Source of the DNA: Antedon mediterranea
Lineage: Eukaryota > Animalia > Echinodermata
Assembly (NCBI RefSeq): GCF_964355755.1
Contig: NC_092679.1
Coordinates: forward strand, 16,723,432-16,787,431
Direction of reading: 5' to 3'
Length of the DNA: 64,000 bases
In this document: positions 22,731 to 55,715 of the stretch, piece by piece
How positions within the stretch are numbered: the first letter of the stretch is position 1
Layout of the letters: each line of letters starts with the position of its first letter
Notes under the pieces: generated by a model
Seen by the model: only the letters and a program-made list of their open reading frames with translations
What the model was told of the DNA's origin: nothing
Database searches by the model: none
Position numbers and translations under genes: made by a program

Positions 22731-25700
22731 CTAAAATTTTGATATTTGAAGTTTAGAGAAGGACTTAAAGCATGTAGGGCACGCCCTTTTCTCGTGTAAC
22801 TCCATGCCCTTTGAGCAAATGTGGCAGATGATGTGCTTACAAGGTATATAACCAAAAAACCCTAAACTAACGCGTCGTGTGCATAGGACGCAGGATTCAA
22901 ACTTCGTCTCATCAGCAGTGTCCGAAAATGTTCGGTACTTCTTTACCCATTTTCTTTCTCTTTCATGAAAATTTTCGGAGCTCTGTCTGCGAAAGGTTTT
23001 TTCAAACCCTGATGGCGGCGTCCTCTCGACAAAACCAGTGGGCAATGGTTCGCCGTTGTCAGTCGTTTGACGGTATATCTCTGATAATGACTGTTCGTAT
23101 TCACCCGCCTTTTCTGGATGTTTCAGACGACTTTGGAATTCACGCTGCAGCGCCTGAAGAACACGGAAATTCAAGTCAATGAACCGGATCTCCAGCATAC
23201 GCCCCTTGGCTTGGAGGAACTCCTTTAACGCGTCTGTCATGATTCGTGCATACACATCACAGGGGAAGTAGAATCTTCCTGTAATATACAAAAAAAAACG
23301 TTCACATTATTAGACAACCTCGATTCAAATAAGTATGTCGAGTGCCCGAGCGATTATGACAGAGCACAGCAAACCAAAGCCATAATACCGGCAAAGGTTC
23401 GGCACTCCTCGGCCATAGTGGAGCAGATCAACCACTTTAAACTGGTACGGTGTATACTTACGGACTTGTGTGCACTTAAAAGAACCCAGAAAGAGTAGGG
23501 GGTGTTGTTCATTTTCTCAACAAGTCTACCAGTTGAATTACTTGCGTACAGAAAGCACGAGAGTGGTCCCCTATGTCTCCCAATTGCACAAAAAATAACT
23601 AATTATACAATAGTTATTTCTTTATAGTTTATTTAGTTTGTGAAGTATTTTCCATTTGACTTACCTGTGCCAAGACCAGGGATTGCTACGGAACTCACAT
23701 TCCGCGTGTCTCTAGCTTTCTGAAGAATATTCTTACAGCTCCGTCGCAGTTGTGACTCCAAATACGTCTGATCTTGATCGGCATTCCAATTGGGCATCAC
23801 AATAAAGAACACTTTGTTACATGGCAGAACTCCTTCTGATTCAATCTCAACAATTTGACCAACAGCTGGTAAACCGTAGGCATCCATCCACTCCAGACAC
23901 CTAGCGTGGATAATTGATCCACTGTTTTTATCAATAGTTGATGAAATTGCTCCTCCACAACTGAGTTCAACGTCATTGGAGCTTACGATAACTGCAGCAC
24001 GTTCTTTAGCAATATCTCCTCTTTTAACAGTTATGTGAACACCATTGAAAATGGTATCGTACATGTATGCCTCACTAGAACTACCGGTTGACTGAAAGAA
24101 ATTTCTGCTGAGGAACGCATGGAATCGAGGGTTCAAAGGTCGTAGCGTTGATGTTGGTGATGTTTGCTTACGAGAATGCCTGTCATGCTCCACTGGTACT
24201 GGTGATTTACTCGAATAATCTCTTTCCCTTCCATTAGCTTTGGAGGGGACTTCGCTATTGCGATAACCGTTACTTTTTAGTGAGTCGTCGCTACCATCAA
24301 TGCTGTCACCATATTCGTCGTTAAGTTGATGTTCATTTATTGGTTCTAACCATTTGTCACCAGTACTTGGTGGTGGGAGAGGTTGATCTTGACCAACGTG
24401 ATTTTGCGTCATCGTTTGATCAGCTAGTTGAGTTTGAGGTATGATGGCAGTTTCCACTTTAATAACCTCTTGATAAGAATTTCGTTCGACTTCTCTAGCA
24501 AGAGCTTCTCGCTGTTCCTCTCGTGCAATAGCTTCAATACGTTGTGCCTCCCTCGTCTTTATTTGTTCCAACTCTCGCGCATAGGCTTCCCTCAGCTCTG
24601 CTTCCCTAAGCTCTTCCTTCCGGCGTTCTTCCTCTGCATCTCTTGCTTCTTTTTCTTTTCTCTCAGCTTCCTCTTTTCTCTCCCTTTCTATTTTTAAATT
24701 TGTTTCTCTTTCCATCTCTTTTGATAACATATCCTCTGCCTTTTGTAGTTCTTCTTTAACAGCTTCACTTTGTCCATAAACCCGAAGGACGTTTGAATCT
24801 GATTGTCTGACAACCATCATTGTAACTATGTTCATCAAAGTACTCTCAACCGTTTCTCTGAAATTCTCGCTTACATCGAACTTTCCAAGATCAAAACTGT
24901 GCACTGACATTTCTTTCTCGATCTCGCTAAATAGCAGTTTTAGAAGATCAACCGCGTTGTCGACGTCTGTTTCAGTTCCTGGAACGCTGTCAGACAACGA
25001 TATTTCTACAGCACCGTTGTCCGTGCATTGTATTTTCACATAACATGTTTGTCGAATTTCATCTACCTTCATTGCATGTATGCTCATCGCATATCTTATA
25101 AGGTCTGGTTCAAACTTTACACTACGTGTTACATTGTCTGCTTTGGTATCACACTCCATGTTGTCACTGTCATCCTTGACATCATCTACCGCTACTTGTT
25201 CACCAGATGTCACTGGATTATAGTTCATAACATCTTGAATTTTAGTCTGTGAGCAAACATCATCTGGTAGTGGTGGTGCTGCTGTAGGTGGTGTTCTATT
25301 CTGTATGTGGTCTAACGGCACTTCTTGTCGACCTTCAGACATCGGCTCAATATCCATGTGTTCATCTTGATTGACTACTACGCCACGTTCATCAAACATA
25401 AGCCACTCTATCTTATTTCGAAGTTGAATTAGAATTTCAAAGTTACCGCTAAAATAACATCCAGTGTCTGTCTTTGTTGACTGTAACCCTAAGTTTAACG
25501 CCATCTCATTTATTCGCTCAAAGTAATGGTTTACATCTGGTAGCCATTCCTTTGTGATATTCACCGTAGTTTCACCAAACAATGAACCCTTAAAAATGAA
25601 AACAAGACGTTAGTTATTAATTTTTAATTATAAAAGATTAATAAAGATCTGAAATTCTGAAGATTGTAAAACTACCTTGAATTTATTGCCGTTGTCTTGG

Positions 25701-27741
25701 TTCTGATTATGTTCATACTCGTACAGTGTTTCGATCTTCAACGACGCCCCGAGGAAGTTGATGCCATTCTCTCTGGAGTAAGCGATGAGCTCGGTACATA
25801 CTGAGAAAATAACAAGTTATAATAGTATAATTTAGCATGCTTTTAAAACATGTTATTGGGTTACAGTGTAGCTCTGGTTGCTGCATGCTACGTAAGTTCC
25901 CTGTGTTATTGCCATAGTCATTTTACAATATATTATGGTATTGTGTTAGTAACTGTAGGTTACGTTTTTCAGAGTAAACAACCGTAAGGTTTGAACATAA
26001 TCAAAAGCTCTGTCTACACTATCAAACTTTATGTGACAAAAAAGTGTGATGTACCCGTATATGGTAGTGATATGCTTAAATATGGTAGTGATATGCTTAA
26101 ATATGGTAGTGATATGACATCATGTCCATATATGGGCATATCACATTTTTTGCCACATAATGTTTGATAGTGTAGACAGAGCTTTAACAACCTATTCCTA
26201 ATATTAAGTGCAATTAGTTTTGAATATAAATTCACTAGTGATATTAGTTGTTTGTCGGGACTTTTAAAACATCATTATACCAACAAAGCAATAACAGAAA
26301 ATCGATATTGCAATATAATATTTAAATTATACTAAAAATACTTGTGTGTGTATTGTCCCCCAAAAACATGAACAATGAATATTAATTACATCAGACTTTT
26401 AATAGGTTATTTTGTAGTTTTAATAAAGTTAACCCCTTCCATAAAAAAAATCAACAAAATAAATGTTTTCTCATATAAAATGACAAAATAAATGGTCAAA
26501 TTCAACCAAAAACCCATTTGCTGGCAGCCAATTTGATTATTTTTTGCTTTAAATTACAGTTTCTTCAGCTAAATAATTGTTTTCGATTCAATTTTTGTTA
26601 AAAGTGAATAACTATTATGTGACATTAAAATGGCATATTCAACAACAACAAAATTTAAAAATTATTTTTTCAGGGGGACATACTTTAAAATTGAACGTGA
26701 AATCCAACAACCATAATTATACAAAGTCAAGTTCACCTGACAATACAATGGCCTTCACTTAAATAGTATTAGACTGGTTTAAATAGTATATACTGGTTTT
26801 ACCTTTGCTTTCAAAAAACACAATGATGGCAGACGATTCATCTAGATACTCAATCCGCTCTATATAGCCCGCACAATTGGCGGATTTACTGAGGTATTCT
26901 TCTAGTTTGTTTAGGAGGTCGTCTTGATTTGACGGTAGGTTGCTTACGACTGCTGTACGTTCCAGTTCGGCAGCCAGCTCCTGGTCTATCCACCGATGCA
27001 AACGCTCTTCCATCGTCCTAGAATAAACAGGACAAAAATACAGGCGTATTTAGGTATAATTAGGTAGTAGGCCTTTTATTAAGTCACCTCGATCGTAAAT
27101 AGATTTGGCCACTAATTCGAGGTACGGTCGGAATCTTAAATGTTTAGTCAATCATTATCACTTTTCAAAACTTCGTTTCTATATTTCTTTTAGATATACT
27201 TAAATACTAATTAATGCCTTAGAAGTCTATCGTGTGTTTACTATTTTTCTTTCGACACACTGTAGGTACTGTACTTTTTTAGTTACTATGTATATGATAC
27301 TATGTGTATAAACTCAAAATATAGTCTGAGGAGTGTTTCATTTCACTTGTCGCTGGTCTAAAATTCCGTTGAGAAATTTCTGTTATGTTCTCGTTCATAA
27401 TTGAATTGCTAAAACTATACTCTCGTTAGCTCCCGACGGAGTATAGTGTTTTCTGAATGTTTGGCGTTTCTCTCGGCTATTTTTACATTTTAGTTTTGAT
27501 TTAACCGTTATAGTTAATCATTTTCTAGCCCAATCTAAGCCCTTTTACTATATCCATGATACTATTTTACCCACAACATTGCTTTTTGTTTAGTAATTGC
27601 CTTTTACACAACAAATAAATCAATATGTTGTTATTTCCTGGTGAATATTCAATAATAAATATCTACTTACATGTCATCACTGAAGCCGTCAGTAGTAAAC
27701 TGTAGCTCCGGACTGCATGCATCCGGGCTATACCGAAACAT
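22731..27741 (-). CDS. Gene A: RRM-like + KH-like + macrodomain + C-terminal C3HC4 RING protein (PARP14/DTX3L-related, no ART domain), about 960 aa
   Basis: In-frame exons 27741-27671 (least certain), 27017-26803, 25800-25676, 25588-23665 and 23278-22731. RTAVVSNLP...SAIIVF (RRM-like); E/R/K-rich coiled coil; macro motifs VKRGDIAKE, GGAISSTI and SVAIPGLGTGRFYFP; RING CVLC-x12-CKHIICHIC-x11-CPTC (22770-22892), then stop. Confidence 0.85.
26351..26684. mobile_element. Non-autonomous DNA element (Kolobok-like); second copy at about 38597-38911
   Basis: TATTGTCCCCCAAAAA ... TTTTTCAGGGGGACATACT|TTAA; the internal block AAAGTGAATAACTATTA.GTGACATTAAAATGGCAT is shared by both copies. Confidence 0.7.
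27335..27348 (-). promoter_or_regulatory. IRF-E/ISRE-like motif near the 5' end of gene A
   Basis: AAGTGAAATGAAAC on the minus strand (tandem GAAANNGAAA core); motif match only. Confidence 0.35.
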
Positions 27742-28547
27742 TATGTAGGCGGAATCAACAAACTTATAAAAATCGCAGGAAGAAAGCACTGTCGTTTAAA
27801 TACCTGGAAGCGCCGAGGCCTGACGTTCAACTTCGGGTCATTAGTAATCTTTCTTTTACAAGTTGATCATAGAAGTGTGGATTTGTTTAATTCTCTTCTT
27901 TTTAAAATCGTTTTTAATGCAAATCGTTTCCAAAGCTAATAGTTATAAAAACTGTCACAACGACAATGCTGGCCTAGATTAAAGTAACTTTCAGTTAGGG
28001 CGAAGGTCGCTGTCTGTTCGTTAGTAGTTTACGGAACCTATAGTAGTACTGTATAGGCCTACAATAATGACTGTTTAATTAGGAGTGCAATGGTGCATGT
28101 ATTTTCATGAGATGATAATAGAATATCAAGTTAATCTTTCACAGAAATGGCTTTATTTCAAAGTAAATGCATTTCTTTTCTTGAAATGCAATAAACGATA
28201 CATATCTATCTATAAAATATCAAACAACTGGACGGAAAGTTGACGTGCCTCAACTTCACAAAACACAGTTTCCAATGATGCCGATACAGTTAATATTTTT
28301 AGCAAATTATAATTTCCATTTTATAGTTTATTTTCTAACTACAAATGTCAACTGCTTCGATTTTAGTGCTGATTGCTGCTTCAAATTATTATGTAGTTTA
28401 CCTTATATTTTATCAGCAAAATGATAATGCTGTTTTCGGACGGTTCAATAATTTCCGGTAACGGTTTGTTAGTATTTTCCGAGCATCTACATAATGTATA
28501 CACTTGCCTGCCACTAAAATATGTTAAAGCTATTTAAAGAAACACTA

Positions 28548-29580
28548 TAGATATACATTCTTTACTTTCTGAATAAAAATGACGACTAATCGGATACAAT
28601 TTGATTTTACACGTTTTGACATATATACGGCGCACATTGATATTTAAATTGGTGTGGTGCGAAATAAAACAATTATGACTACAAGAAGTACTTAAACTTA
28701 AACACCAAAATCAGTTATGCTATTAAAAAAAAAACACTTGGATATACATTCTTTACCTTCTGAATAAAAATAGTAAACTTTCTATAACGACTAATCGGAT
28801 ACAATATTTGACTTTACACGTTTTAACATACGGCGTACATATTGATATTTAAATTGGTGTGGTGCGAAATAAAACAATTATGAATACCTACAAGAAGTAA
28901 TTAAACTTAAACACCAAAATCAGTTATGCTATTAAAAAAAAAAAACTTAGATATACATTCTTTACCTCCTGAATAAAAATAGTAAACTTTCTATAACGAC
29001 TAATCGGATACAATATTTGACTTTACACGTTTTAACATACGGCGTGCATTGATGTTTAAATTGGTGTGGTGCGAAATAAAACAATTGTGAATACAAGAAG
29101 TACTTAAACTTAAACACCAAAATCAGTTATGCTATTAAAAAAAAAACAACTTAGATATACATTCTTTACCTTCTGAATAAAAGTAGTAAACTTTCTATAA
29201 CGACTAATCGGATACAATATTTGACTTTACACGTTTTAACATACGGCGTGCATTGATGTTTAAATTGGTGTGGTGCGAAATAAAACAATTATGAATACAA
29301 GAAGTACTTAAACTTAAACACCAAAATCAGTTATGCTATTAAAAAAAAAACAACTTAGATATACATTCTTTACCTTCTGAATAAAAGTAGTAAACTTTCT
29401 ATAACGACTAATCGGATACAATATTTGACTTTACACGTTTTAACATACGGCGTGCATTGATGTTTAAATTGGTGTGGTGCGAAGTAGAACAATTATGACT
29501 ACCAAAATCAGTTATGTTATTTAACATACGGCGTACATATTGATATTTAAATTGATGTGTTGCGAAATAAAACAATTAAA
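28548..29580. repeat. Tandem repeat, 190-209 bp unit, about 5 copies, downstream of gene B
   Basis: GATATACATTCTTTAC...CGACTAATCGGATACAAT...GGTGTGGTGCGAAATAAAAC recurs at about 28548, 28739, 28948, 29152 and 29356. Confidence 0.92.
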
Positions 29581-29822
29581 ATACAAGCTTAAAAACGGAT
29601 AAGTGCTCAGGCAGTCCATGCTATAAGCTGATGCTACACTAAGAACGGCAATCTGTCAAAAATGTGTATTAACATTTATTGTTTAAACCCACCCTGATCC
29701 TTGTTTAACATAAACATTATTAATACAAGAAATAAACTAAACTTAAAAACGGATAACGGTACTCGGCTATAACAATTGCTACAATAGAACGGCAAACTGT
29801 CAACACAACACACAGTCATTGT

Positions 29823-32800
29823 TTAAACCATTGATCCTTGTTTTCCAAAGTCCACACTGGATCCAAATGTCTTTCGCAATTCGGTCAAAAGGTATGATTT
29901 CTGGTCAATCAGTGTGATATTCTTCAGAGTTGATTTTGAACTTAGTTCATCTTGCATGGCAGTTAACATCCCGTTCACGAAAACAGTAAGAGGATAATTA
30001 AAGGCTCCTGAAAACAATACAAGAATGGTAGATATAAAACTATTCTCAAAACTTAAAAAAAAACCAATTCATTATGTCTCCTAAAAAAGGCGGAGTTAAC
30101 ATACAGTAACTGATAACAAAATATTATCAAGTCATGCGAAAAATGAATTTGCCATTGTCATTTAAATATTATCAAAATAAATAGCTCCCTCTCTAACATT
30201 GCTATACAAATCATAACTAAATCTAAATAAAATGAGCATTGATGAAAAAATGAAATTCGTCAAAAATGTCGTTCCAATTGCAAAGGTTACATAGTTTATA
30301 TCATTGATTATGGCGTGTAAAGTATTCTAAAAAGAAAATACAACACCCACCTGTTCCTAATCCAGGTATTGCGGCTGACCTAGCTCCGATGTAATGTAAC
30401 GACTTGAGTACTTCTTTGCATAACCGAGTCATAATTTTACAGTTTTCTTCAAAAGATTTAAAAACGTTACAATCCGGCATTACAAGAAACATAATACATT
30501 TACACGACAATGATCCACTACTAACGTTGAAAACCTTTCCAGACGTTGATGGTATGTGCCTAATATACCATTTCTGGCATTCTTGTTTTATTACTTCACC
30601 ACCAGCTCGCAAAATGGCACTTGCCAAACCTCCTCCCATGATCATTTGGCAGTCTACCGAGCTTACAATTACATCAACTTGTTCCTTAGTGATATCTCCG
30701 ACCTTTCCGGTGATTCTCACGTTGTTGATGTTAAAGATATCATAAGGGTTACGAGAAGAGGAGGAAGAGGAATTGTTAGAAGGAGAAGGAGAATATTGCA
30801 ACTTTGGCTGCCAAAGTATAGGTTTATCGTGACGAGATTCCAGATAGGATTTTTCTGATGGTTGATAAGCAGAGCCTGCAGAATACGGATATGTGTCCTT
30901 GGTTACAGTTTTGTTGGGTTGTTGAGTTGGGTAGGACTGAGTAAACTTTTCTTCTTCCATATTTCTTGTGTCATGCGACGTAACGTGTGATGGCTGGTTA
31001 GAGCTGCTTGTCTGAAAATGGCGGTCATAGGCAGTCTTATTTGGGTACGACTGAGTCAACTTTTGTTCTTCCATATTTCTTGTATCATGCGACGTAACGT
31101 GTGATGGCTGGTTAGAGCTGCTTGTCTGAAAATGGCGGTCATAGGCAGTCTTATTTGGGTACGACTGAGTCAACTTTTGTTCTTCCATATTTCTTGTACC
31201 ATGCGACGTAACGCGTGGCTGGTTAGAACTAGTTGCCGGCAAAGACGGAGGTGTGTAGTGTTGAGACGTTTCTTCCTTCTTAAACTCATTCATACCGCTT
31301 GTACCACGAGAAGGCACTTGTGATGGCATATCAATGGCAAACGATTCATCAGGATCGTCCTCTTTTCCATCAATGCGACCGTCACGCTTTCCTAATCTAG
31401 GTCTACTTTCGTCATCTTCTTCTTCCGTCGTACTCGTGACACGTCTCATTTGACCTCCCTTCGCATCTTCCTCGTCAACTTGTGTATTGCCATCATCGCA
31501 CTCTTTAAACAACATGGATTTTTTTATCATATGTGATCTAAAATCACCAACTGCGTTCCAATCACCTTCCAACGTTACGAATTGCTCTTGTTTTGCGTTC
31601 CAATCTTCTTCCAATTTGAAAAACCTTTTTTGTTTTGTAAGGGTAAAAGAAAGGTCCAGTTTTATGGAGAGGTGTCGTAGAAACGATAAGTCATCATCTA
31701 GGATATACGGATGTTCTTTTGTAGAAATTGTAACTTTTACATTTTCAAACGGCTCCACGGTCTGAAATTGTAAAATTGTGCCCTGATAACAGTGTCTCAA
31801 TTAGTAAGAAGTTTATTTTATTTATTTACACAATTTCTCAACAAAATTACATTCGCTCCCCGTGCCCATAGACACCTTTTCACCATGGCTGATTTCTTTC
31901 ATCAATATTGATTTTGATGGCCAGAAAAAATAGCAATTCTTGCTTTAGAGAGGAAATATTGTACAGATATTGACTGCTTAGAGGTTAAATTAAGATTTTA
32001 CATCCCCGAGTGAAGGATATTTTGTTCGAGGAAATATAAAATTCCCCGAGAACATAATATCATTCCCGAGGGATGTCAAATCTTATATTTTACCGATATA
32101 ACAGGCGATATCTGTAATATTACATAGCCAAAAACAAGTAGAATATCTGCTGGGTCGGATCAGGGAGATGTAAACTACATTAGCTATCCGACCAGGGAGA
32201 TGTAAAATACATTACAGACTTGTTTACATTGGCAGACTTGTTTACATACAATACAAAAAGGAGGCCTAGCCTAGCTATCCGACCAGGGAGATGTAATGTA
32301 TTTTACATCTCCCTGGTCGGATAGCTAGGCTAGGCCTCCTTTTTGTATTGTATGTAAACAAGTCTGCCAAGACAATAATGTTTTATATTACATAGCCTAT
32401 GTAAATACGCGAACGTGATTGGTTGAAACTGCATCACATGACTACGAGGATCGTAATTCGTATATATCCTCGAGAACGATGATATTGACTGTGTAATTTT
32501 CGCGTAATTATCGTGTCCCCTGTCATTAATCATATAAATTCTCGAGTACGATGATAATGACTGTGTAATTTTCGTGTGCGACACTCGCGTTTGCCGATAA
32601 ATAAACAAAAGTCATCTACTGGTCTTGAACTTGCGATGCAATTGTCACTCCATCACACGACAACGCTTCAACCGCTGCGCCACAGAATTTGCTTGAAGAA
32701 ATTAATCTTCTAAACTATTTAAGCTATGCATACATAGCGCCCTCATTTATTATTAGTCCACCCTAAATGTGATGAAACACCGTTTGTGATTGGTCAATAC

Positions 32801-35113
32801 TCACGGTGTAGTAACCTAGTAACTAGTACGCGCTGAACATCCGGTGATTCGGCTCCTCGAAGAGAAGAAGAAGACGAATTTTTATTCGGCCTACCTGATT
32901 ATAATATTATTATTAATAGGCTTATTGATGGAAATTCTTCTGTTAATTTCAACGACCTAGGCCTAAGTGAATATTTTATTGCCAAGGAATCATTAATTAG
33001 TAATTATCTGTATATTATTCTTCGCAAGGTAAGGTGTCTAGGCAGGCTTATTTAAATACAAATAATATAGGAGGCCTAGCCAACCCAGCAGACTTGTTCT
33101 TGGCTATATAATATAACAGATATTGCCTTTTATATCGGTTAAATATAAGATTTGACATCCCCGAGGGGATGTCAAATCTTATATTTAACCTCTAAGCAGT
33201 CAATATCTGTATAATAGTTTTTGTTACAGAGGGCAAACAATGCTGTATCTTTGTGGCGGAAAAATAACGAGACTGAATAAAGTAGAAGTTCTTTTATGAA
33301 CTTATGTTTGTACCACAATAGTTGGTAAACTAGTAGCATTAAATACAAATAAAAATATATATGTTGATGTACTTTTGGCAATTTATTATTATTTATAATT
33401 GTTTGCTAAAGTTTTTAGGACCTATATAATTAAATATGCCGTGTGGTAAAATTATGTTTTGGTAATTAAGTGTGGTAACGATGTATTCAAAACAATATTT
33501 TAAAGATCTCTTTGTTTTTCTTTAAAAACAAAATTGTAAATTTATTTGTAATCAGCTGTACCAAATTAATTAAAAATATATAACACATTTGTAGATAGAT
33601 TAAGATATTAATGGAAGTACATTGATACTTCACTTACCTCTCGTTGACCCACGTCTTCTTTAAGTGTTTTTGAAACTCGAGTAGGCCTTAATTCCGAATC
33701 AGGTGTGACGTCAGAATTCTTCAACCGATATGTATCAAATGACATTGCTTCAACTTCAGATCCATGAAGTTGATGAGGACTCTTTTCAATAACCAAATCA
33801 ATCACTAAGAACATATAAATATGATTTAAGTAAACAAAATATATGCCCAAAGCATTATTGCTGTTTAATAATTTTCCTTTGTATGATACCGTATAGGCAT
33901 ATAACAATATGGCCTAAAGTTAAATGTGTAAACGTTACAGAGGGAAAAAAATGTTGTATCTTTATGGATGAAAAATAACGAGACTGAATATAACGTATAG
34001 AATTCGGCGTGCATTTCCCTTATGAAGTTATGTATACGTTTGTACCGCAAGCAGAATTCAATAGACATGTACGTATATTGTATAACAGATATTAACATAT
34101 TATTGCACTGCCATCATAAATGCATAATCATAAAAACTATATTGTACTTAATAATACACATTATAACCAAAGGTGACGTGTGCTTACCGTTCTCTTTGCA
34201 AAACGTAATTAATGCCGCATCTGTATCGATTAAATAAACGTGTTTGATATCTCCTCCGCCATTCTTCTGCTGTCTAAAATGTGTTTCAATTTGATCTGTG
34301 ACGTGTCTAATTCTTTGGATTCCCACTACCACTAACGACCGTTTCTTGTCACTATCGGTGAGTTCTTCTGTCACTGACAAAAAACTCTTGTATGACGACA
34401 TAAAAAAAAAATCATTAGAATTTTAAATTCAAAATTATTTTTGGTACGGATAATAATGTAAATGTCTTAATACTACTGTATTTCATTAAAGAATTAATTT
34501 ATTACCCTTACTTTCTGTACGTCATCTGTATTTGTAGGTTGGTTGACTTTAGACTTCTTCAGCATACTGCTTAATGACGTCACCTCGACTGTCTGTCCGT
34601 TAAGCTTATGCGAACCATGTTCAATAACCGATTGTATCACTAAAAATCAGAATGTACAATACAAAGCGTTTGATTAAAGAATAATCAGTTTGTCTAAATA
34701 AAAGATAATATCGAATGAGATGTTATTTATTATTTTGTATTGTACGCATATAGGGTGCCCAATATTCGTTACATTATAGTGCCTTGTAGTATAGACAATT
34801 TTAGAGAGAAAAAAGAAACATCTGACGACCGGCCGGAATGTAAACAGTGAATTAGGACAATTAATTGTGTAAAATTAATTATAGTCACATGTATTATTTG
34901 CCTACCTTTTTCTTCGCCAAACGTAATTAATGCCGTGCTTTTGTCCAGCATTATAATCTTTTCAATGTCCCCTCCACCATTGACCCGTTTTCCAAAGTAT
35001 ATCTCAATTTTATCTTCGTTAGTTAATGTCGGAATTTCCGATACCAGCACCGACCGTGTCTTGGCGCTTTCACTGAGTTCAGCCATCAGTGATGACATTA
35101 CGTATTCCGACAT
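29823..35113 (-). CDS. Gene B: 2x RRM-like + KH-like + macrodomain protein without RING or ART, about 765 aa
   Basis: In-frame exons 35113-34906, 34639-34512, 34386-34188, 33804-33638, 31761 (or 31782)-30351 and 30007-29823. IEIYFGKRVNGGGDI and IETHFRQQKNGGGDI (PARP14/NMI-type RRM); macro motifs VGDITKEQVDVIV, GGGLASAILRAGG and AIPGLGTGAFNYP; stop shortly after the macrodomain. Confidence 0.85.
31960..33213. mobile_element. Non-autonomous element with inverted ends of about 48 bp in an intron of gene B
   Basis: TACAGATATTGACTGCTTAGAGGTTAAAT... at 31962 is the reverse complement of ...ATTTAACCTCTAAGCAGTCAATATCTGTA near 33210; subterminal sub-palindromes; internal perfect hairpin and tRNA-like segment. 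Superfamily not assigned. Confidence 0.75.
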
Positions 35114-35196
35114 CTTTAAAAACGACAGGAAAAATAAAAAATATTAAGTAACTTTGTGTACTATTGAACAGTAGGTCTTTCTAACATTGAAATGTG

Positions 35197-35745
35197 TTGA
35201 TATGCGTCGTTATTTGTCGACTGCGTCGTTACGGTATTTGTCGATATGCGTCGTTATTTGTCAATATGCGTCGTTATTTGTCGACAAGCGTCGTTATTGG
35301 TCGACATGTGTCGTTATTTGTCGACATGCGTCGTTATTTGTCGACCATGCGTCATTATTTGTCGACATGCGTGGTTATTTGTCGCCCATGCGTCGTTATT
35401 TGTCGATATGCGTCGTTACTTGTCGATATGCGTGGTTATTTGTCGACATGCGTCGTTATTTGTCGATATGCGTCGTTATTTGTCACTATATGCGTCATTA
35501 TTTATCACTATGCGTCGTTATGTGTCGGTATACGTCGTTATTTGTCGATATGCGTCCTTATTTGTCGACATGAGTCGTTATTTGTCGACATGCGTCCTTA
35601 TTTTTCGATATGCGTCGTTATTTGTCAATATGCGTCGTTATGTGTCGGTATACGTCGTTATTTGTCGATATGCGTCCTTATTTGTCGACATGAGTCGTTA
35701 TTTGTCGACATGCGTCCTTATTTGTCGACATGCGTCGTTATTTGT
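35197..35745. repeat. 20-bp CpG-rich minisatellite
   Basis: Unit ATGCGTCGTTATTTGTCGAY, about 27 copies, just upstream of the first coding exon of gene B. Confidence 0.93.
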
Positions 35746-36455: not shown

Positions 36456-36465
36456 GGAAATTCCC
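36456..36465 (-). promoter_or_regulatory. NF-kB consensus site upstream of gene B
   Basis: GGGAATTTCC on the minus strand, an exact GGGRNWYYCC match, about 100 bp upstream of a candidate first-exon donor at 36360. Confidence 0.5.
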
Positions 36466-36529
36466 GTAGACAAGAGATCATGTATACCGCGATGCATTGT
36501 GGGTGGTATGCAAAAGTGCGCCGCCTTAC

Positions 36530-40277: not shown

Positions 40278-40287
40278 GGAAATTCCC
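40278..40287 (-). promoter_or_regulatory. NF-kB consensus site upstream of the calmodulin-like gene
   Basis: GGGAATTTCC inside a 39-bp block identical to 36434-36472, about 160 bp upstream of the ATG. Confidence 0.5.
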
Positions 40288-41065: not shown

Positions 41066-45405
<4,340 letters not shown>

Positions 45406-48400
45406 TTTGTAAGAAGGTGGTATGGATTGATGAAAGGTAGTTAATCTACGGTGGTTGCAGCAGAACTGAAAGACAATCTATGTGGTGATAGGATTGCGAA
45501 CAAACGGTATGCAAATGAGCGACCTGTTGAGACGAATCGCTGATGACTACTGCACAACTACTAAATTGTTAAGTTTTATTCATGCATTCTTTGTCCGCTA
45601 GTAACCACTCAACCGATCCGTGCCAACGATTTGTATTATCCTTTACCCTGAAAATATCGAGGTTAATCTTGTATCTCATGAACTGTATGCCAATTTGTCC
45701 TATTATATATATGAGCACGGCGGATCCTGACAGAGAGCCGGGGGAATCGGGCAACACTTCCTCCCTAATAACCTAATTTGGGGAATTTCAGCTGTATATT
45801 ATTTTATATTCAATACTGCCAAACTAACATTGACAATTTGGTATAAAAATCGTGACTAATAAATTAGCATATGGTTAATAATACGCATTTGCGTTTGTAT
45901 CTAGGCGCGCCTATATTTTATTTTCAATCAAATTCTTGACAGAAGATAAATGTTATTACTTGACTAATGCTTACAAAGCATTTGGCAAGTATAACAATTG
46001 CTTGGTATGATCATGGACCTATACATTAGGTCCATGGATGAATGTATACATTATTTTTCTGAACGGTTTTTAGTCGCGTCCAACGTGTCGGTTGGTCGGT
46101 AAACACTAACTTGAGCACGTGACTTCAGCCACATGTATATGGCCTTAATTGTTTTTAGATTCATATTGCTAACCAAAGCTATCTTTACTTTGGAATCTTG
46201 CTAAACATTTAAGTGTATTCCTTACTTATTTTCAAATAGATATATACCTACAGACCATGCCTATTGATTTTCATGAAATAATGTTGATGAGGTCACAAAC
46301 GTATATTAAAAGCTGGAGTTATATATATGTATCTTCAATATTGTCCAAAATAACAAATATCGCGCTCTCTTCCGGGGTGCGCATTTTCCAAGTTTCTGAG
46401 CGCATTGAATTATAAGTATAAAACTTTATTTAGAATGACCCATGCAACAACAACCAAACTTATTATTTGTATTTGTTCAGGGCCACAATATTATATATTA
46501 AAAATAACCTTACAAAGTATAAGCAAGTCTACTGAATTACTGTAACAATCATTACAAATTCAGTTGACCATATTTGGTCAGTTAAAATAATTCGTATTTT
46601 TTACATATTGGTAATTAGATGCAAAGTTAATCGAAACTCTTTACTCATAAATAAAAATTGGAATCGATCGCTATACTGAGTTTCAATTATGTATTGTTTT
46701 CTTATCATTTCTTGTATAGCAGTAAAACTCGAACCAGTAAAAAACAAACAATTAAATTTATATATAACTCTGGCGTTATATTGTCTTAATGCACTGCGAC
46801 TCATGATTACAATAAACTTTGAATTGATTGATAATATAATTATAGCTAATTTGTTATCTTAAATTGAATTATATTATTATTATTACCTGATTAATTCAGA
46901 GCACGAAAGGGAGTGGCAATAATTATTCAATAATTTTAGAAATTATGTCCGTGACTATTGTGTCGTTATTGATGATAAAAAATTTACACAAATAATAAAA
47001 AGAAAATAGAGGTCAGCTTAGAAAAGAACTCCTGGATTCAGGGATTGTTGTTAAAAAATTAAATAATTGCAGCAGTGTTTTCTGTTATAAAAATAAAATA
47101 AATCCTATAAAAATACAATAATGTACTATCGTATTATTACTTAATCGCATTCAGCATATAACTGCAAATATGTCAAGTTTAAATCAATCATATACTCGGT
47201 CTATAGTTTACAACAAAAAACTAATGAAAAAAGTCAAGTCAACTTTTCCTTCGGACAGACATGCGCAACAGCGAATCAGCTGGCGCCTTTTATGCTAAGT
47301 TGAAAAAAGTTGGTGACGTCGGCCATATTTTGAAATTGTTTATGATTAACATAAAGATGAAAAGAAATAGACTTTAATATGTCTATATATCGTTGGTTCC
47401 CTTCCGCATGATTGTTAATTATGCAAGTCAAAACAAATGCCCACGACGAATGCTATCGATCATAATTCTTGTTTTAATCGATGAGAAAAAGGCGGACGTT
47501 TTGTAGATTCAATAAACCTGGCTACTTTTTCTAAACTAGAGTTAAAAAACTGGCGATTTCAAATGTACAATAATGCAGGACAATAATATATGTCGTTTAC
47601 AGGAACGATTAAATAGACACTGTGATTTATGTACTCAACTAAAATTAGCACACTGGGAACTACTTTCGAAAGAGAAACTTGTCACAAAATGAGACCAATT
47701 GTTTAAGTCAAATTTAAAAAAACTTAATTTGTGTTTTGTATGTAACATTATGGTTGAAGGATGGGGAAGAGGATAGGTGCAAAGAGGAAAAATTTTTAAA
47801 TATATTCTTTATTTTGTAACGAAATATTAATTAACATGTTTTACAAATAATATACCACTAAACACAGTAAAACATTGCGATGTAATACTTTGTTGAAACT
47901 ATCACCGTCGTAGTCGATTGAAATAGTACAGTACATGTAACGATACACTACGACGTATGTTTATATATAATGTTAAACAATTTGTGAAAACCACCTCTAT
48001 TCGGGGCAAATCATAAATTCGATTTAATCGGTAATAAATATTAAATTACGGCGACTGAAAACGCTAGCTCATTATCCGTTTCAAAAAAAATTATATCCAA
48101 CCTCTGCAGCACAGATTGAAAAAAAAATGGATCAAATTTCTGTTATGAGTATACAGTACTTTCCTTTACGACGCCTGAGGGAATAGACACTTGTGGAACG
48201 ACACAGAGATTGGAATGTTCCATTCATCGCAAATCAATACATTTGTATAAACGTATATTAAATCTATCAAAATAGTATTTTTTTAAGAAAACATCAACAT
48301 TATGATACTGTACTCGAGCTGTTCAACCGGTTTTCAGCTATTAAAAACAATTATCGTAGGAGGAGATAGGAAAATGCGAAGCCTCCTCGCATTTTTGTGG

Positions 48401-48766
48401 CGGATATTTTTCAAGATGGACATCCATTAGACAGTGTATACCACGATCGAAAAACACCCCTATTTGGGGCAAATCGTTGAACCTAAATTCGTTTTAATCG
48501 TCAATAACTAATTATCGAACTCAATTTAATTAGTAAACAGGGTTACATCAGGTGGTTAAAATCAGTACCGAAAGTACGAACCAACTTTATATACCATCGA
48601 GTAAACATTCTAGAAATAACGCGTGATTTACCGAATTTTGCCCTTACGTAAATTTATATATAGATACCTGCTGACAACAGGACGGAAGTAAGATAATATT
48701 TTCTTTTGCAAGTTCAACGCAAAATTTGGGACGTGGTTACTGCATATACGGCAACCGTTGCACATG

Positions 48767-49570
48767 CTGATCGGCAGTGACCTTTTCACGCTTACCTGAT
48801 CGGCAGTGACTTTTCTACTCTTCCCTGATCGGCAGTGACCTTTTTCACTCTTCCCTGATTGAGAGTGACCTTTTTTCACTCTTCCCTGATCGGCAGTGAT
48901 CTTTTTCACTCTTCCCTGATCGGCAGTGACCTTTCACTCTTCCCTGATCGGCAGTGACCTTTGTCACTCTTCCCTTATCGGCAGTGACCTTTGTCACTCT
49001 TCCCTGATCGGCAGTGACCTTTGTCACTCTTCCCTGATTGGCGGTGACCTTTGTCACCCTTCCCTAATTGGCAATAACCTTTGTCACTCTTCCTTGATCG
49101 GCAGTGACCTTTTTCACTCTTCCCTGATCGGCAGTGACATTTGTCACTCTTCCGTGATCGGCAGACCTTTGTCACTCTTCCCTGATCGGCGATTCGGCAC
49201 TGATCTTTATCACTCTTCTCTGATCGGCGGTGACCTTTGTCACTCTTCCTTGATCGGCAGTGACCATTTTCACTCTTCCCTGATTGGCGGTGACCTTTGT
49301 CACTCTTCCCTGATCGGCAGTGACCATTTTCACTCTTCCCTGATCAGCGGTGACCTTTTTCACTCTTCCCTGATCGGCAGTGACCATTTTCACTCTTCCC
49401 CGATCAGCGGTGACCTTTTTCACTCTTCCTTGACTGACAGTGACCTTTTTCACACTTCCCTGATCGGCAGTGACCTTTTTAAATCTTCCCCGATCGGCAG
49501 TGACCCTTTTTCACTCTACCCCGATCGGCAGTGACCCCTTTTCATTCTTCCCCGATCGGCAGTGACCCTT
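48767..49570. repeat. 30-bp minisatellite
   Basis: Unit TGATCGGCAGTGACCTTTGTCACTCTTCCC, about 27 copies. Confidence 0.93.
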
Positions 49571-49759
49571 TTTTTTAGAAAAGTGGGATGAACATTAATA
49601 TAAGACAAAAAAAGAACATCAGTAATCGTCATCAATATATTGTGCTATGTTACTATGTAAACATTTATATTATTTTGTACTTACTAAAATAACGGCTTGT
49701 GTTACAGTATATAACACATTGTTTTCATTTATTATGCTTCACAAGACAGACGCAGACAC

Positions 49760-50265
49760 ATGAAAGTATGACGTGATCTATAATGTGACAGTATTATGAC
49801 GTAATCTATAACGTGAAAGTATTTGACGTGATCTATAACTGATGTGATAGTATTATGACGTAATATATAAGGTGAAAGTATTATGACGTGATCTATAACG
49901 TGAAAGTATTATGACGTGACAGTATTAAATATTATGACGTGATCTATAACGTGAAAGTATTATGACGTGATCTATAACGTGAAAGTATTATGACGTGATC
50001 TATAACGTGAAAGTATTATGACGTGTCCTATAACGTGAAAGTATTATGACGTGTTCTATAACGTGACAGTATTAACTATTATGACGTGATCTATAACGTA
50101 AAAGTATTATGACGTAATCTATAACGTGACAATATTATGACGTAATCTATAACGTGATATTATTATGACGTGATCTATAACGTGACAGCATTATGATGTA
50201 ATCTATAATGTGAAAGTATTGTGACGTGATCTATATCTTGAAAGTATTATGACGTAACCTATAAC
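49760..50265. repeat. 28-bp minisatellite
   Basis: Unit ACGTGATCTATAACGTGAAAGTATTATG, about 17 copies. Confidence 0.92.
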
Positions 50266-51105
50266 AAGAAATATTTAACATGATCTAAACTAGTAGGCCT
50301 GGTTAAAGATTAGTGTAAAAGGCATTCCATGCGTTACAGGCGGTTAAGGCTTATATATTATACAGTAACAATTATAAGATACCTTAAAACTAATGAATAC
50401 CATGATCTACAAAAGTATAAAGTGGAATAATGATTGTATTATAATATGGATGTTCTAATCTCTAATAACATTATATGACTAGTAAAGTTATTATATATAT
50501 TATGTAGTTTCAACATTGTTTAAATATTTTAATAATACTGTAATAATATACGAATGTTTGGAGTATCAACTTTCCCATTATGATTATACACATGTTAGCA
50601 TACTAAGTGGACGCCATTTATATCGATTGCAATGATTAATATCAAGTACCATAATAAGATAATACGTGGAATGTTGGAGTCCACCAGCGGACGTTTTATC
50701 GTTTGATAATGTACGGTTGATAAAGATTTAACAACCCGTTCCATTCATCATAAACATTGACGAGTATTTATTTATTTATAGGCCTATACAGTATACAATT
50801 TCACAGTGTAAAAGGCAGTTTAGATCTAGAAGATCAGGTGATCTTTGCTTTAGTTCAAGTAAGATTGTTTGGCAATCAAGGTATATTTAGCAAATCATAA
50901 TTTGGTACATTTATTTACATAATGCAAGACATTTGACATTTACATGTTAAGACCAACCTGCGGTCATGGTGCATGCTATGTTATGTTTTGTTGATTGTAT
51001 ATTGTTAAAATAATTGTTTATGTATGTGTTTACAAGGCGGCTCCTTGATCACAGTATCTGCTATTTGTTGTTAGCCACAGTAAACAAAACACTCTATTCT
51101 AAATT

Positions 51106-54100
51106 CTACTTTAGTGGCTTTCGGCAAACACCACAGTTTTGATTGTTACTTTCTAATTGTCGGAAACAACTTCCACAACATGCGTGCGAACAGTACACTG
51201 GAGACTTCTTATTCCGCAGAGGTCCCCAACAAATTGGACATTTCTGATCATGATCGCTGGCAAACTGATCTGTAGGCCAAGCATTACTGTGTATGCCTAC
51301 ACTTGAGAGATTATCCTGGAAGTCTTCTTCAAGAAATGCAGAAGAGAAGTACCCAGTATCCATTGAACTTCTCGACAGTAATGTTGGATCACTAGTCGGG
51401 ATATTTGTGTTCAATTGCGGCAATCTTTCTTCGATTAAAGAAATCCCCCTTTCATCCCAGTCTACTATTCGAATCTCCCTTACATGTTTAGTTGGTTTCA
51501 CCAAGAATCTAGAAAGTGCATTTACAAATGATTTTGCAAAAACACTACGTGGTATACCATAAGAAGCTGTAGATCAAAAGAAAATGGTGTAAGAAAGTCA
51601 ATACACAAGAAATAATAAGCAATACTGCATGCTTTACGAGTATACCATCATTATGTCACTTTTAAACTACGCACTTTTGCCGCAACGCAACGTAAGCACA
51701 TACTCTTCTATTAATTTCGCACCCCCCTCTTACGAAAAAATAAATGATCATTGTTGCAACGTGCGCAATATGTCTACGGCACCATGATTACGTCACTAGC
51801 TCTGGCACGCAAGGTTATATTCTTACGGCACTTTGCGCCGATACGTTGCGTCTACATCTTGTTGCGTCCTAATGAGAACGAAGCTTTAAGAGCGTTCTTT
51901 TGCAGCATATATAATTGATTGATAATGTTTATCTATACCCATAACTTGCCAACACATTATTAAAGACTTACCTGTTCCAAGAAGTGGCAGTACAATCGAA
52001 TTTGCAGAGAGATTATCTCGTCCAGCTTTAAATATTTTGAACAACATTCCTTCAAGAAGTTGTTCTGTGCCATATTCATTCCAACGAGGAACCACGGCAT
52101 TTACAACATGTGAGCAAGCAATGCCTTCATCAACGTCCACCCATACAATCTCACCATCTCTCACATTTCCATGATTCATGATCCAACGGGCACATTGTGA
52201 TTTGAACTTTGGCCCACAAAGTTCACTAATTTGTCCTGCAATACCTTGATTACATTGCAGTCCGTTATCTGATGAGCAGACAATGACACTTGCAAATTCA
52301 TCGAGGATGTTACTTTTTGTCCCGATAACTTTAACATTTTTAACTGTAATTTCGAAGATTTTACGACTACCAGAGCACATAGAATCGGAAAAATCACAAC
52401 CACCTCTCTGTCCATTACCTCTTTTAGAATTAGCTGAGGGAAACGATCTCTTGGGGATCACAGCACTATCAAACTGATGTCCATTTGTTATCCCTGTTGG
52501 TTTCCTACTGCTTGGTTGATGAACACTCCCATTACGTGGTAAGGGGTTTGTTCGAGTATCCGACGAGTTAGGCTTTACTTTTTGGACTGCTTGTGAAGTG
52601 GTGGCAGTCAAATATCTACTACTACCAGGAGAACCAAGCATCTCTCTAAATTTGGTCTTAGCAGAATTAATATCTTTACTCTTTCCATAGATATAGAATT
52701 TGTTTCCAATTACTTTTACCAATACAGATTTTGATTGAGTCAACTCTTTTTCTGCAGGAATATATTGCTTTGAATCTGCTTCCTCTGGTGTCAGGGTAAA
52801 CATTTCTTCTTCAGTATTTAACTCGATGGTGTCTGTTAAATTTCTAAATTCCTTAGTAGCTTCTTGTAGCCCCTTGGTATTATCAGATACATTTGATTTT
52901 ATGATAACTGCTGTTCCTTTTTGATTGATGGTAACTTTATTTTTTCGTTGTATGTGATCCAAATCACTGGAATGAACTTTTTGAACATAATTCAATAGGT
53001 TTTCTGATCCCTTTACCGTGTGTGTTGTACTTGAGTGTTGAAAATGAGTGTTACTATTAAAAGAATGAGTAGAATCTTGCGTGTCTTTACTCTTTGAGTC
53101 ATGTTTTGTTAATGAAGGATTGTTATGGATGCCTGTTCTCTTTGACGCCGTTGATGAAACTGACGTTGATGTTTTTCCACTAGAAGGTCCAAGCATCTGT
53201 TTAAGTTTACTTTTAGCAGCATCGATGTCAGGTCGTGTTCCATAGAAGTAGAATTTTCTTCCTACGACCTTCACCAGTAGTCGCATTGATTCGGTCAATT
53301 CTTTTTCGGCAACAAAATAATTCTTCGATTCTGCTTCTTCTAAGGTCAATGTAACAACTTCTTCTTTAGTCTCTGATGTAACCTTTTTTATTAAGTTCTT
53401 CAGTTCTTCAACAGCTTCATGAGTGTTATCGGATCCAACTGATTTGACGGTAACAGTTGTTTGGCTTGTCCTATCAAAATTTACTTTATTTTGACGTTGC
53501 ATCCGATCTAATTCTTCATGATGGAAAACTTGAATATAATTTAAAGCGTCCTCTTTACCTTGTACACTGATTGGTCGACTTGAATCACTGATTGTTTTTC
53601 TGTTGACACCTTTTGGTTTAGGACATTTCTCTTCTTCGTAATCCATTTTTTCACTGTCATCACTTGAAAATACATCTTCCACTTTATCTTTAAATTGTAC
53701 ATCGATTGTTGACCTGTTGGTACCTTTGGGTTTTGAACATTCTTCGTCACTTGAAAAAACATCTTCCACTTTTCCATTAGAATATACATCACATAGATTC
53801 TGTTGCCGACCGGAGTATCCACTAGTAGAAGTATGTGCCTCTTCTGACCTTTGATTAGAAACTTGCACTGTTCTTGTTTCATATTTAGTCTTCGAGTCGT
53901 GTTTTGTAGCTGTCGTTGAGTGATTGCTATTTCCACTAGAAGAGGTTGTAGACTGTGAAGACGTGGTGCCACTAGAAGATCCAAGCATCTGTCTAAGTTT
54001 GCGTTTAGCAGCATCGATGTCAGGTCGTGTTCCATGGAAGTAGAATTTTTTTCCTATGACTTTCACCAGTAGTTGCACTGAGTTGGTCAATTCTTTTTCT

Positions 54101-55715
54101 GCAGCAGAATAATTCTTTGATTGAGCTTCCTCTGAGGTCAAGGCAACCACTTCTTGTTCAGTCTCTGTTAACACCTTTTCAACCAGGTTCCTCAATTTGT
54201 CTGCTGCTTTATGAATATTACCAGAACCAGCTGATTTTATGATGACAGTGTTTTGATTTGTCTGATCAACAGTTACTTTGTGTTGACGTTGAATCCTATT
54301 TAAGTCTTCAAAATGGACAGCTTGGATATAATTCAATGCATCCTCTTTACACTGTATACTGATTGGTTGACTTGAGTCACTGGTTGTTGGTCTGCTGTTA
54401 CCTTTAGTTTCTGAGCTTTCATCTTCGCAATCCATGGTTCCACTGTCGTCACTTGAAAATACATCTTCCACGTCCTCATTAGACGATGCATTGCCTGTAC
54501 CTCTATGTTGTTGCCAAGTGGAGTAAGCATCGCTATTGGATGTGTATGCTTTTTGTGACGTTTGATGCCATTGAGTTGCAAACCGTTTCTCCTGAAACAA
54601 ATATTTAAAAGTTTTAAAATTGATTTTTTTTGTGGAAAGTTTTTATATATTAGATAACAAATCTTGTGAATAAATCCTTTAACAATCCAGGTATTTACTT
54701 TTGAAGACATCTATTAACAAATAGGAAACAAATTATTGTTGATGTTACACTACCATTTTGGTTGTCCTTGCTTCTTTGGTTTGTAGGTGAACTTTGACAT
54801 TTCCAATGACATGACACCTTGATGACCTCATTAACGAAGATGCCACTGTGATGGAAAATAAAAAGAAAGTGAAAACAAAATTATTTTACACATGTAGAGA
54901 GTTTTTGGAGATGCTTCTTTGTGAAGTATGATTAAAACAGCTCTGTCTTTTTTTGAATTGCCCCGTGTGGGATGATTAAAGAATTTTGAATTGAATTGAA
55001 TTGAATTGTCTACACTATCAAACTTTATGTGACAAAACAAATGTGATGTGCCCATATATGGACACGATGACGTCACTTTTTAGTGATTATTCAATCTCAT
55101 ATAATTTAGTGACTACTGTTTTACATGATATCCACTAATTAAATTTAAATTTACGACCACATCAATTCTATAAAGGGAATTTAAGTCATCTATGATCTTT
55201 GTTAATACAGTACAAACTTTATTGCGGCAATAGAGGGCAGTGTAGGGGTTTTTCTGTATTGGAAATGCAATTTGTCGTATTCGAGTGGGACCGTTGAGTA
55301 GTAATGGCATACTGACTCAATGGCATATTTATGATGTGTTTGTCCCAGAAGTTGATTGGCTGTGCTAGGGGTACGCGCTTACCCCTTCTGACATCTAACT
55401 ATTAATGTTATATGTATTGTTAGCGTTCTGTTTAAAAACAATCCTGGATTTTCCCGCCCCGCAAGATTTAAACCTACCGTCAGGATTATCAAACATGATA
55501 ACTGCTGTGTCTTCATCAACCCTTATGATCGTATTTATATCACCACCACCATTTCGTCTTTTTCCAAAGTAAAGTTCCAGCTTGTCCTCGCTGTACCCAT
55601 TAATCTCTTTGATACCAGTCACCAGCACAGAATTTGGATGCTCCACACACCTTACAGGATCCATCACACACCCTTCTATTCCGAACAAGACATGTACATT
55701 AGAGGGAATTGTCAT
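51106..55715 (-). CDS. Gene C: RRM-like + 3x KH-like module + macrodomain + C-terminal C3HC4 RING protein, about 1120-1136 aa
   Basis: In-frame exons 55715 (or 55664)-55478, 54845-54754, 54591-51972 and 51566-51106, with a probable non-coding exon ending at 56461. LELYFGKRRNGGGDI; macro motifs SNILDEFASVIV, QGIAGQI, CSHVVNAVVP and SIVLPLLGTASYGIP; RING CPIC-x11-CSHACCGSC-x10-CGVC (51124-51240), then RKPLK and stop. Confidence 0.85.
54948..55005 (+). mobile_element. Extremely 5'-truncated LINE/SINE 3' end inserted in a MITE TIR
   Basis: GCTCTGTCT-[TTTTTTGAATTGCCCCGTGTGGGATGATTAAAG...(TTGAA)4]-TGTCTACACTATC: TGTCT is duplicated; short stem, ATTAAA signal and (TTGAA)n tail. Confidence 0.65.

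What the first reader, a model, noticed from the sequence alone, without database searches (positions are those of the whole stretch)
22731..55715. Family of three macrodomain genes, two ending in a RING: candidate single-chain ADP-ribose-directed ubiquitin ligases
Seen: three paralogous minus-strand genes (A, B, C) share a PARP14/DTX3L-type RRM-like start, KH-like modules and one macrodomain. They also share a phase-1 intron after the RRM A(I/L/V)I.F strand, a phase-0 intron before the large exon, and a phase-1 intron inside the macro PxLGT|(G/A) motif. A and C finish the macrodomain and encode a C3HC4 RING in the same last exon, then stop; no WWE, ART or Deltex C-terminal (DTC) domain is visible. 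Established: in vertebrates the ADP-ribose-reading macrodomains (PARP9/PARP14) and the RING (DTX3L) sit on separate proteins that form an interferon-induced complex, and DTX3L has a DTC after its RING. Inference: A and C put reader and E3 in one chain and could ubiquitylate ADP-ribosylated host or pathogen proteins in invertebrate innate immunity. I cannot confirm that the architecture is undescribed.
Basis: partly seen in the sequence, partly recalled or inferred. Interest (0 to 1): 0.88.

Follow-up and report, generated by a model that had tools for sequence, protein, structure and literature searches.

The report
Truncated Deltex ligases with ADP-ribose reader
Two neighbouring feather-star genes join an ADP-ribose-reader-type macrodomain to a RING finger and stop there; they are likely shortened copies of the already known invertebrate macrodomain-bearing DTX3L ligase that lost its tail domain, and would therefore tag ADP-ribosylated proteins with ordinary ubiquitin rather than make the Deltex ADP-ribose-ubiquitin hybrid mark.

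Summary
Three intact minus-strand paralogues (A, B, C) of a crinoid (RefSeq: Antedon mediterranea) carry an RRM and one macrodomain; A and C end in a C3HC4 RING. No DTC was found in the window. C is spliced as modelled in an RNA-like run, and A and C orthologues in Anneissia japonica end at the same place. One correction: B has no double-KH module.

The novelty premise is weaker than proposed. Reader plus RING in one chain is the common invertebrate DTX3L layout (RRM-KH-Macro-RING-DTC: sponge, coral, molluscs, brachiopod, hemichordates, amphioxus), and a 2026 preprint already says DTX3L once carried a macrodomain. Layout, a matching double-KH module and an apparently shared exon point to A and C as DTX3L offshoots cut just after the RING; the macrodomain tree agrees but is not decisive.

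What seems undescribed is the combination: DTC lost and the macrodomain's catalytic Asn replaced by Asp. The predicted result is a non-erasing mono-ADP-ribose reader fused to a conventional RING, RNF146-like logic. No binding or ligase activity was tested. Verdict: new variant of a known kind; interest 0.5.

The parts
26803..27013 (-). Gene A exon 1 (RRM-like start); RefSeq adds a short upstream coding exon beginning at 27741
   Evidence: (RRM_PARP14_3 19.3 bits, below cut-off)
25676..25800 (-). Gene A exon 2 (end of RRM region)
   Evidence: same in RefSeq P0001
23665..25588 (-). Gene A exon 3: small alpha/beta module, double-KH-like module (about 25129-24716), charged stretch, first two thirds of the macrodomain (from about 24040; motifs GDI, SSND, CGGAI, PGLGT)
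22731..23278 (-). Gene A last exon: macrodomain C-terminus, linker, C3HC4 RING (22892-22770), 12 more residues, stop
   Evidence: X1 contig spans 23282-22438 unbroken
33638..35113 (-). Gene B exons 1-4 (35113-34906, 34639-34512, 34386-34188, 33804-33638): two RRM units
   Evidence: not covered by the RefSeq fragment P0002 and not checked against RNA
30351..31761 (-). Gene B exon 5: low-complexity region with a 114-bp repeat and first two thirds of the macrodomain (GDI, SSVD, MGGGL, PGLGT); no double-KH module detected
29823..30007 (-). Gene B last exon: macrodomain C-terminus then stop; no RING
   Evidence: RefSeq P0002 ends the same way
55478..55715 (-).
   Evidence: X1 loose end at 54846 reads this exon
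54754..54845 (-). Gene C exon 2
   Evidence: joint 54590/54753 in X1
51972..54591 (-). Gene C exon 3: three double-KH-like modules (about 54369-53977, 53574-53185, 53028-52630) and first two thirds of the macrodomain (SNI, CSSD, CNQGI, PLLGT)
51106..51566 (-). Gene C last exon: macrodomain C-terminus, linker, C3HC4 RING (51240-51124), 5 more residues, stop
   Evidence: joint 51566/51972 in X1, contig runs on to 51047

Best explanation
Genes A and C encode RRM-KH-macrodomain-RING proteins that stop right after the RING; they are likely crinoid offshoots of the invertebrate macrodomain-bearing DTX3L that lost the DTC domain, and are predicted to bind mono-ADP-ribosylated targets through a non-erasing macrodomain and ubiquitylate them on lysines through the RING. 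Shown: genes, splicing of C, domain content, absence of DTC, Asn-to-Asp change at the macrodomain catalytic position, conservation in a second crinoid. Inferred: origin from DTX3L (about 0.85); loss of hydrolase activity with binding kept (about 0.65 for A and B, lower for C); canonical E2-dependent lysine ubiquitylation; inability to make the ADP-ribose-ubiquitin ester, which needs DTC; an antiviral or stress role. B, with no RING, would be a reader-only paralogue.
For: Layout: of 34 non-crinoid macro+RING sequences among the 282 fetched, 32 have a DTC after the RING. Exon: 7 short hits that look like single-exon genomic ORFs begin at macro profile position 120-126, where the crinoid intron falls (124); 6 of them run through the RING to DTC position 43-46. 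Double-KH module: crinoid profile against the macro-DTX3L pre-macro region gives hhalign 97.8%, E 9e-13, 128 columns, against 45.9% and 68 columns for PARP14; its 8 best non-crinoid hits all bear a DTC. Tree: five crinoid macrodomains form one clade (100/96) placed among DTX3L macrodomains, outside the starred PARP14 Mac2/3 and PARP9/14 Mac1 groups. Fold: the A model matches PARP9 MD1 (Z 28.6, rmsd 1.6, 187 aligned) and PARP14 MD1. Residues: catalytic Asn is Asp in A, B and Antedon C, against Asn in 20 of 23 DTX3L first macrodomains; that substitution removed hydrolysis in two viral macrodomains and left ADP-ribose binding intact in the one where it was measured (PMC7729036, PMC12632316). Constraint: A macrodomain 168/186 and RING region 51/57 identical between the two species. 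DTC is required for ADP-ribose and nucleic-acid ubiquitylation (PMC12687431, PMC11460948).
Against: No binding or ligase assay. AU tests do not reject a PARP origin of the macrodomain (p 0.33 with Mac2/3, 0.18 with Mac1). The PxLGTG loop looks like PARP14 Mac2/3. The exon boundaries of relatives are read from protein text, not DNA. A has Ala at the third glycine of loop 1 and Phe, not Arg, after the last RING cysteine; Antedon C lacks the Pro of CPxC; C's pocket is degenerate and only 56% (macro) and 41% (RING) identical between species; Anneissia C keeps the catalytic Asn. The A double-KH module alone scores about equally against DTX3L and PARP14 profiles (11 and 12 bits). The fold model was built on an alignment rich in Mac1-type rows, which may bias it.
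Confidence: 0.5

Rival explanations
1. The proteins are DTX3L-derived RING ligases, but targets are chosen by the RRM and KH-like modules (RNA or a PARP14-type partner) and the macrodomain is a protein-interaction or vestigial module that no longer binds ADP-ribose. Most plausible for C.
For: C's pocket motifs are degenerate (SNI, CNQGI, GTASY; Anneissia SDI, CDSGL, GIATC) while its double-KH module is expanded to three copies. Human DTX3L uses its KH region to bind PARP9 (PMC10955461 abstract).
Against: A keeps the adenine-binding Asp and is 90% identical in the macrodomain across species. C keeps the third loop-1 glycine, and Asp-to-Asn at the adenine site was tolerated in a tested macrodomain.
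Confidence: 0.25
2. The RINGs are weak or inactive, and A, B and C act as readers, scaffolds or decoys that shield ADP-ribose marks or tune an intact DTX3L/PARP14 complex.
For: B has lost the RING altogether. A lacks a basic residue after the last cysteine and has an atypical loop length; Antedon C has CGVC. The Pfam RING scores are near cut-off.
Against: All eight zinc ligands are kept in both species; the A RING region is 89% identical across species. The residue after the last cysteine is also variable in DTC-bearing relatives. The RING is modelled with pLDDT about 80.
Confidence: 0.15
3. The genes arose independently from a truncated PARP14-like gene that captured an unrelated RING, converging on the DTX3L layout.
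For: AU tests do not reject grouping with PARP macrodomains; RRM matches PARP14's Pfam model; loop 2 reads PxLGTG as in Mac2/3.
Against: The RING shares an exon with the macrodomain C-terminus, as appears to be the case in DTX3L relatives; the double-KH module is DTX3L-like; loop-1 length and fold are Mac1-like.
Confidence: 0.08
4. The stops are artefacts or recent decay: transcripts continue to DTC exons, or the genes are pseudogenes.
For: Poly(A) sites were not mapped; RNA support comes from one run and is indirect for A and absent for B.
Against: Same C-termini in two species; no DTC in the window; an X1 contig runs from macrodomain through RING past the stop of C; frames intact.
Confidence: 0.02

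Closest known systems
Invertebrate macrodomain-bearing DTX3L (RRM-KH-Macro-RING-DTC), e.g. Branchiostoma CAH1268233 annotated DTX3L, Ptychodera XP_070564848, Oscarella, Lingula
   Same: Domain order RRM, double KH, single macrodomain, C3HC4 RING; apparently the same intron inside macro loop 2 with the RING in the following exon.
   Different: No G[NDT]QP motif or DTC after the RING; catalytic Asn replaced by Asp in 4 of 5 crinoid macrodomains, whereas 20 of 23 relatives keep it.
Human DTX3L-PARP9(-PARP14) complex
   Same: RRM, KH-like modules, RING and macrodomain reader acting together.
   Different: Reader in cis, no DTC, no ART domain, so the ADP-ribose-ubiquitin ester chemistry is predicted to be absent.
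RNF146/Iduna (RING + WWE), and CHFR (RING + PBZ)
   Same: One chain holding an ADP-ribose reader and a RING; listed as such in PMC12687431. Lysine-directed, PAR-dependent action of RNF146 is recalled knowledge.
   Different: Reader is a macrodomain, expected to see mono-ADP-ribose or chain ends, not WWE or PBZ; unrelated origin.
PARP14/PARP9/PARP15 macroPARPs
   Same: PARP14-type RRM and a macrodomain whose best structural matches are PARP9 and PARP14 macrodomain 1.
   Different: One macrodomain only; no WWE or ART by Pfam.

Membership tests
Deltex / DTX3L | C3HC4 RING near the C-terminus | tested here: met
   A and C: eight ligands, Pfam RING hits. Not present in B.
Deltex / DTX3L | DTC domain directly after the RING | tested here: not met
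   Stop 12 (A) or 5 (C) residues after the last cysteine in both species; DTC profile finds nothing in proteins or window.
Deltex / DTX3L | N-terminal RRM | tested here: met
   Pfam RRM_PARP14_3 above cut-off in B and C, below it in A; shared with PARP14, so not diagnostic.
Deltex / DTX3L | Double KH-like module before the macrodomain or RING | tested here: met
   A and C: hhalign 97.8% to macro-DTX3L; KH folds top the structure search, Z up to 8.8, rmsd 3.2, 74 aligned. Not detected in B.
Deltex / DTX3L | D2 oligomerisation domain after the RRM | tested here: inconclusive
   A small alpha/beta unit is modelled at moderate confidence but profile comparison is not significant and Pfam gave no DTX3L alpha/beta hit.
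Deltex / DTX3L | Ubiquitylation of ADP-ribose or nucleic-acid 3'-OH | not testable with these tools
   Predicted absent because it needs DTC in cis.
macroPARP (PARP9/14/15) | C-terminal ART domain | tested here: not met
   No PARP or WWE hit at E 0.1 in P0001-P0005.
macroPARP (PARP9/14/15) | Two or three tandem macrodomains | tested here: not met
   One macrodomain per gene.
MacroD-type ADP-ribosyl hydrolase | Macro fold | tested here: met
   Model of A, pLDDT mostly over 85 in the domain; TM 0.92 to PARP14 MD1.
MacroD-type ADP-ribosyl hydrolase | Asn/Ser of the NAAN motif plus hydrophobic-aromatic pair in loop 2 (criteria of PMC10221186) | tested here: not met
   Asp in A (both species), B and Antedon C; Anneissia C keeps Asn but has Thr-Cys in loop 2.
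MacroD-type ADP-ribosyl hydrolase | ADP-ribose binding | not testable with these tools
   Pocket residues partly kept; no assay.
RNF146-type reader-RING ligase | WWE reader domain | tested here: not met
   No WWE hit; analogy of logic only.
RING E3 ligase | E2-dependent ubiquitin transfer | not testable with these tools
   Sequence features mixed.

The most novel reading that the evidence does not exclude
Crinoids turned the ancestral eraser-plus-Deltex enzyme into a dedicated mono-ADP-ribose-directed degrader: DTC removed, hydrolase switched off by the same Asn-to-Asp change that biochemists use to make a pure reader, RING kept under strong constraint. Gene A would be a natural single-chain macrodomain E3, the mono-ADP-ribose counterpart of RNF146, and similar DTC losses in a freshwater mussel model and an unnamed fragment would make this a recurrent evolutionary route.
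Probability: 0.35. Interest if true: 0.75.

Novelty: new variant of a known kind. Interest (0 to 1): 0.5.

Why it matters
Whether mono-ADP-ribose can act as a degradation signal without Deltex ester chemistry is open (PMC12759070 abstract start calls its role in turnover elusive). These genes are a natural deletion experiment that separates macrodomain recruitment from DTC catalysis and gives a compact protein to test it.

Tried and rejected
Whole genome not held, so other Antedon DTX3L or PARP14 genes and exon maps of relatives could not be checked at DNA level. Word-based homologue search with the last exons found only the four crinoid proteins; weak evidence by the tool's own note. Atlas search with C's last exon gave only generic RING hits under 0.8; the macro+RING part gave Macro-RING-DTC clusters at 0.84 and 0.80, leads only. 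PDB sequence search for the RINGs did not list a Deltex RING; best were RING2 and BRE1, weakly. D2-domain homology suggested by eye was not supported by profiles. PDB profile search of the KH modules gave only a spurious-looking MMS21 hit. AU tests were not significant. No run on record as RNA was listed; X1 was treated as RNA only because it shows spliced joints that X2 lacks. In one search the joint table was filled by a high-copy repeat, so no splice joint of A was displayed. No complex prediction was run, since no binding pair is claimed. Considered and rejected: B and A as one gene (B has an in-frame stop and RefSeq separates them); onward splicing after the RING (only weak donor-like sites near the stops).
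Full report
Observation. The window is animal DNA with no whole genome held. Homologue search returned the three proteins under RefSeq names for the crinoid Antedon mediterranea and two orthologues from Anneissia japonica. Pfam finds one macrodomain in each, an RRM (two in B, sub-threshold in A) and a RING in the last exons of A and C. A profile of 14 DTC domains finds nothing in the window or the proteins. The double-KH module occurs once in A, three times in C and is not detected in B; a model of A's module returns KH folds as best matches at modest Z.

Are the ends real? Run X1 shows joints at 51566/51972 and 54590/54753 that run X2 lacks, and one X1 contig reads from the macrodomain through the RING and 59 bases past the stop of C. 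For A, X1 contigs break at the exon borders and one spans the last exon and about 290 bases beyond the stop, but no joint was displayed and intron sequence is also covered. This is one run of one study, and poly(A) sites are unmapped. The Anneissia orthologues end 12 and 5 residues after the last RING cysteine, exactly like A and C. None of the X1 differences that were listed changes a zinc ligand or makes a stop (16 rows were not shown).

What is it related to? A profile of the four last exons was run against 1.84 billion representatives; 150 of 1295 hits were listed, 147 non-crinoid. By my own profiles 35 of the 147 carry a DTC, 29 a macrodomain and 27 both (the DTC profile was built from 14 of these hits). 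Pfam on 34 hits that I picked for long matches confirmed Macro plus DTC in 15. Named ones come from a sponge, molluscs, a brachiopod, hemichordates and amphioxus; a third search added a coral and more molluscs. Over all 282 proteins fetched, 32 non-crinoid macro+RING sequences have a DTC and 2 do not: a Sinanodonta gene model (P0209) and an unnamed 150-residue fragment (P0137). Neither was checked against transcripts. [quoted passage not shown] Its Figure 1d and supplements could not be seen and may show DTC-less or echinoderm cases.

Origin. Three lines favour descent from macro-DTX3L. First, 14 of the 147 hits stop at DTC position 42-46; 6 of these, plus P0137, begin at macro position 120-126 behind text that lacks the PAIS motif, which is where the crinoid intron lies (124). 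They read as single-exon ORFs of a macro-tail, RING, DTC-start exon, and the crinoid last exon would be that exon cut before G[NDT]QP. This is inferred from protein text, not DNA. Second, the crinoid double-KH profile matches the DTX3L pre-macro region at 97.8% over 128 columns and the PARP14 one at 45.9% over 68; its 8 best outside hits all bear a DTC, though A alone does not discriminate. Third, a 71-row tree puts the five crinoid macrodomains in one clade among DTX3L macrodomains. Against: AU tests do not reject placing them with PARP Mac2/3 (p 0.33) or Mac1 (p 0.18), no echinoderm DTX3L was in the set, and D2 homology was not shown.

Mechanism. The A macrodomain models confidently and matches PARP9 and PARP14 macrodomain 1 best (the alignment used was rich in Mac1-type rows). 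The Asn that positions the distal ribose is Asp in A (both species), B and Antedon C, whereas 20 of 23 DTX3L first macrodomains keep Asn. By the criteria of PMC10221186 (passages) none of the five is a predicted hydrolase. The same Asn-to-Asp change nearly abolished activity in one viral macrodomain (PMC7729036 section 3.4) and abolished activity while keeping ADP-ribose binding in another (PMC12632316 passages). A and B keep the adenine-binding Asp; B keeps GGG, A has GGA, C is degenerate but keeps the third glycine. A is strongly conserved between species (macro 90%, RING region 89%), C much less (56%, 41%). DTC supplies the pocket and His-Glu pair for attaching ubiquitin to ADP-ribose or nucleic acid, and the RING alone does not suffice (PMC12687431, PMC11460948 passages). 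The most likely working model is therefore recruitment by a non-erasing macrodomain and ordinary RING-E2 transfer to lysines. That canonical RINGs default to lysine, and the roles I give to the loop-1 glycine, the CPxC proline and the residue after the last cysteine, are recalled knowledge. An immune role rests only on the family.

Novelty. Eight paper searches listed no paper on a DTC-less macro-RING protein or on these crinoid genes; for most papers I saw only the listing and abstract start, and subscription journals are largely outside the library. PMC13224862 (passages), 10.1101/693333 (passages) and PMC10955461 (abstract) added background only. It fails the defining Deltex test (DTC) and is not filed as a Deltex member, but it descends from one with probability about 0.85. 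Verdict: new variant of a known kind, interest 0.5.

Noticed in passing
window 44031-41075 and 39148-37660, minus strand: Two tandem calmodulin genes between B and C: one looks canonical, the other is a diverged calmodulin-like copy with changes in EF-hand loops.
   Followed up: partly
window 9203-20022, plus strand: ADP-dependent glucokinase gene, tail to tail with gene A (Pfam ADP_PFK_GK on first and last exons).
   Followed up: no
window 62839-61310, minus strand: A 510-codon stop-free frame with a serine-rich start and a divergent tyrosine-kinase-like domain (HND and DFG motifs; Pfam 6e-21). It looks intronless, so a mobile or viral origin is possible; not tested.
   Followed up: no
window 12521-15642, plus strand: LINE-type retroelement (endonuclease then reverse transcriptase by eye), split over three frames, inside the glucokinase gene span.
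   Followed up: no
window about 26000-26660: Very high-copy interspersed repeats in intron 1 of gene A; a similar element lies near 55080-54990 in intron 1 of gene C.
   Followed up: no
P0019, P0033, P0051, P0053, P0114, P0172, P0194, P0209: Mollusc DTX3L-like proteins carry a second, degenerate macrodomain that forms its own clade (100/99), separate from PARP14 Mac2/3.
   Followed up: partly
P0193 (Mya), P0214 (Dreissena): Two-macrodomain bivalve proteins that group with mollusc DTX3L macrodomains but show no RING or DTC by Pfam: possible parallels to gene B, or partial models.
   Followed up: no
P0114 (Haliotis rufescens): Gene model joining an N-terminal RING and B-box to Macro-RING-DTC; may be a real TRIM-like fusion or a merged model.
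   Followed up: no
invertebrate macro-DTX3L set: 20 of 23 first macrodomains keep the catalytic Asn, so these proteins may combine an ADP-ribose eraser and a Deltex ligase in one chain; I saw no test of this in the papers read.
   Followed up: partly
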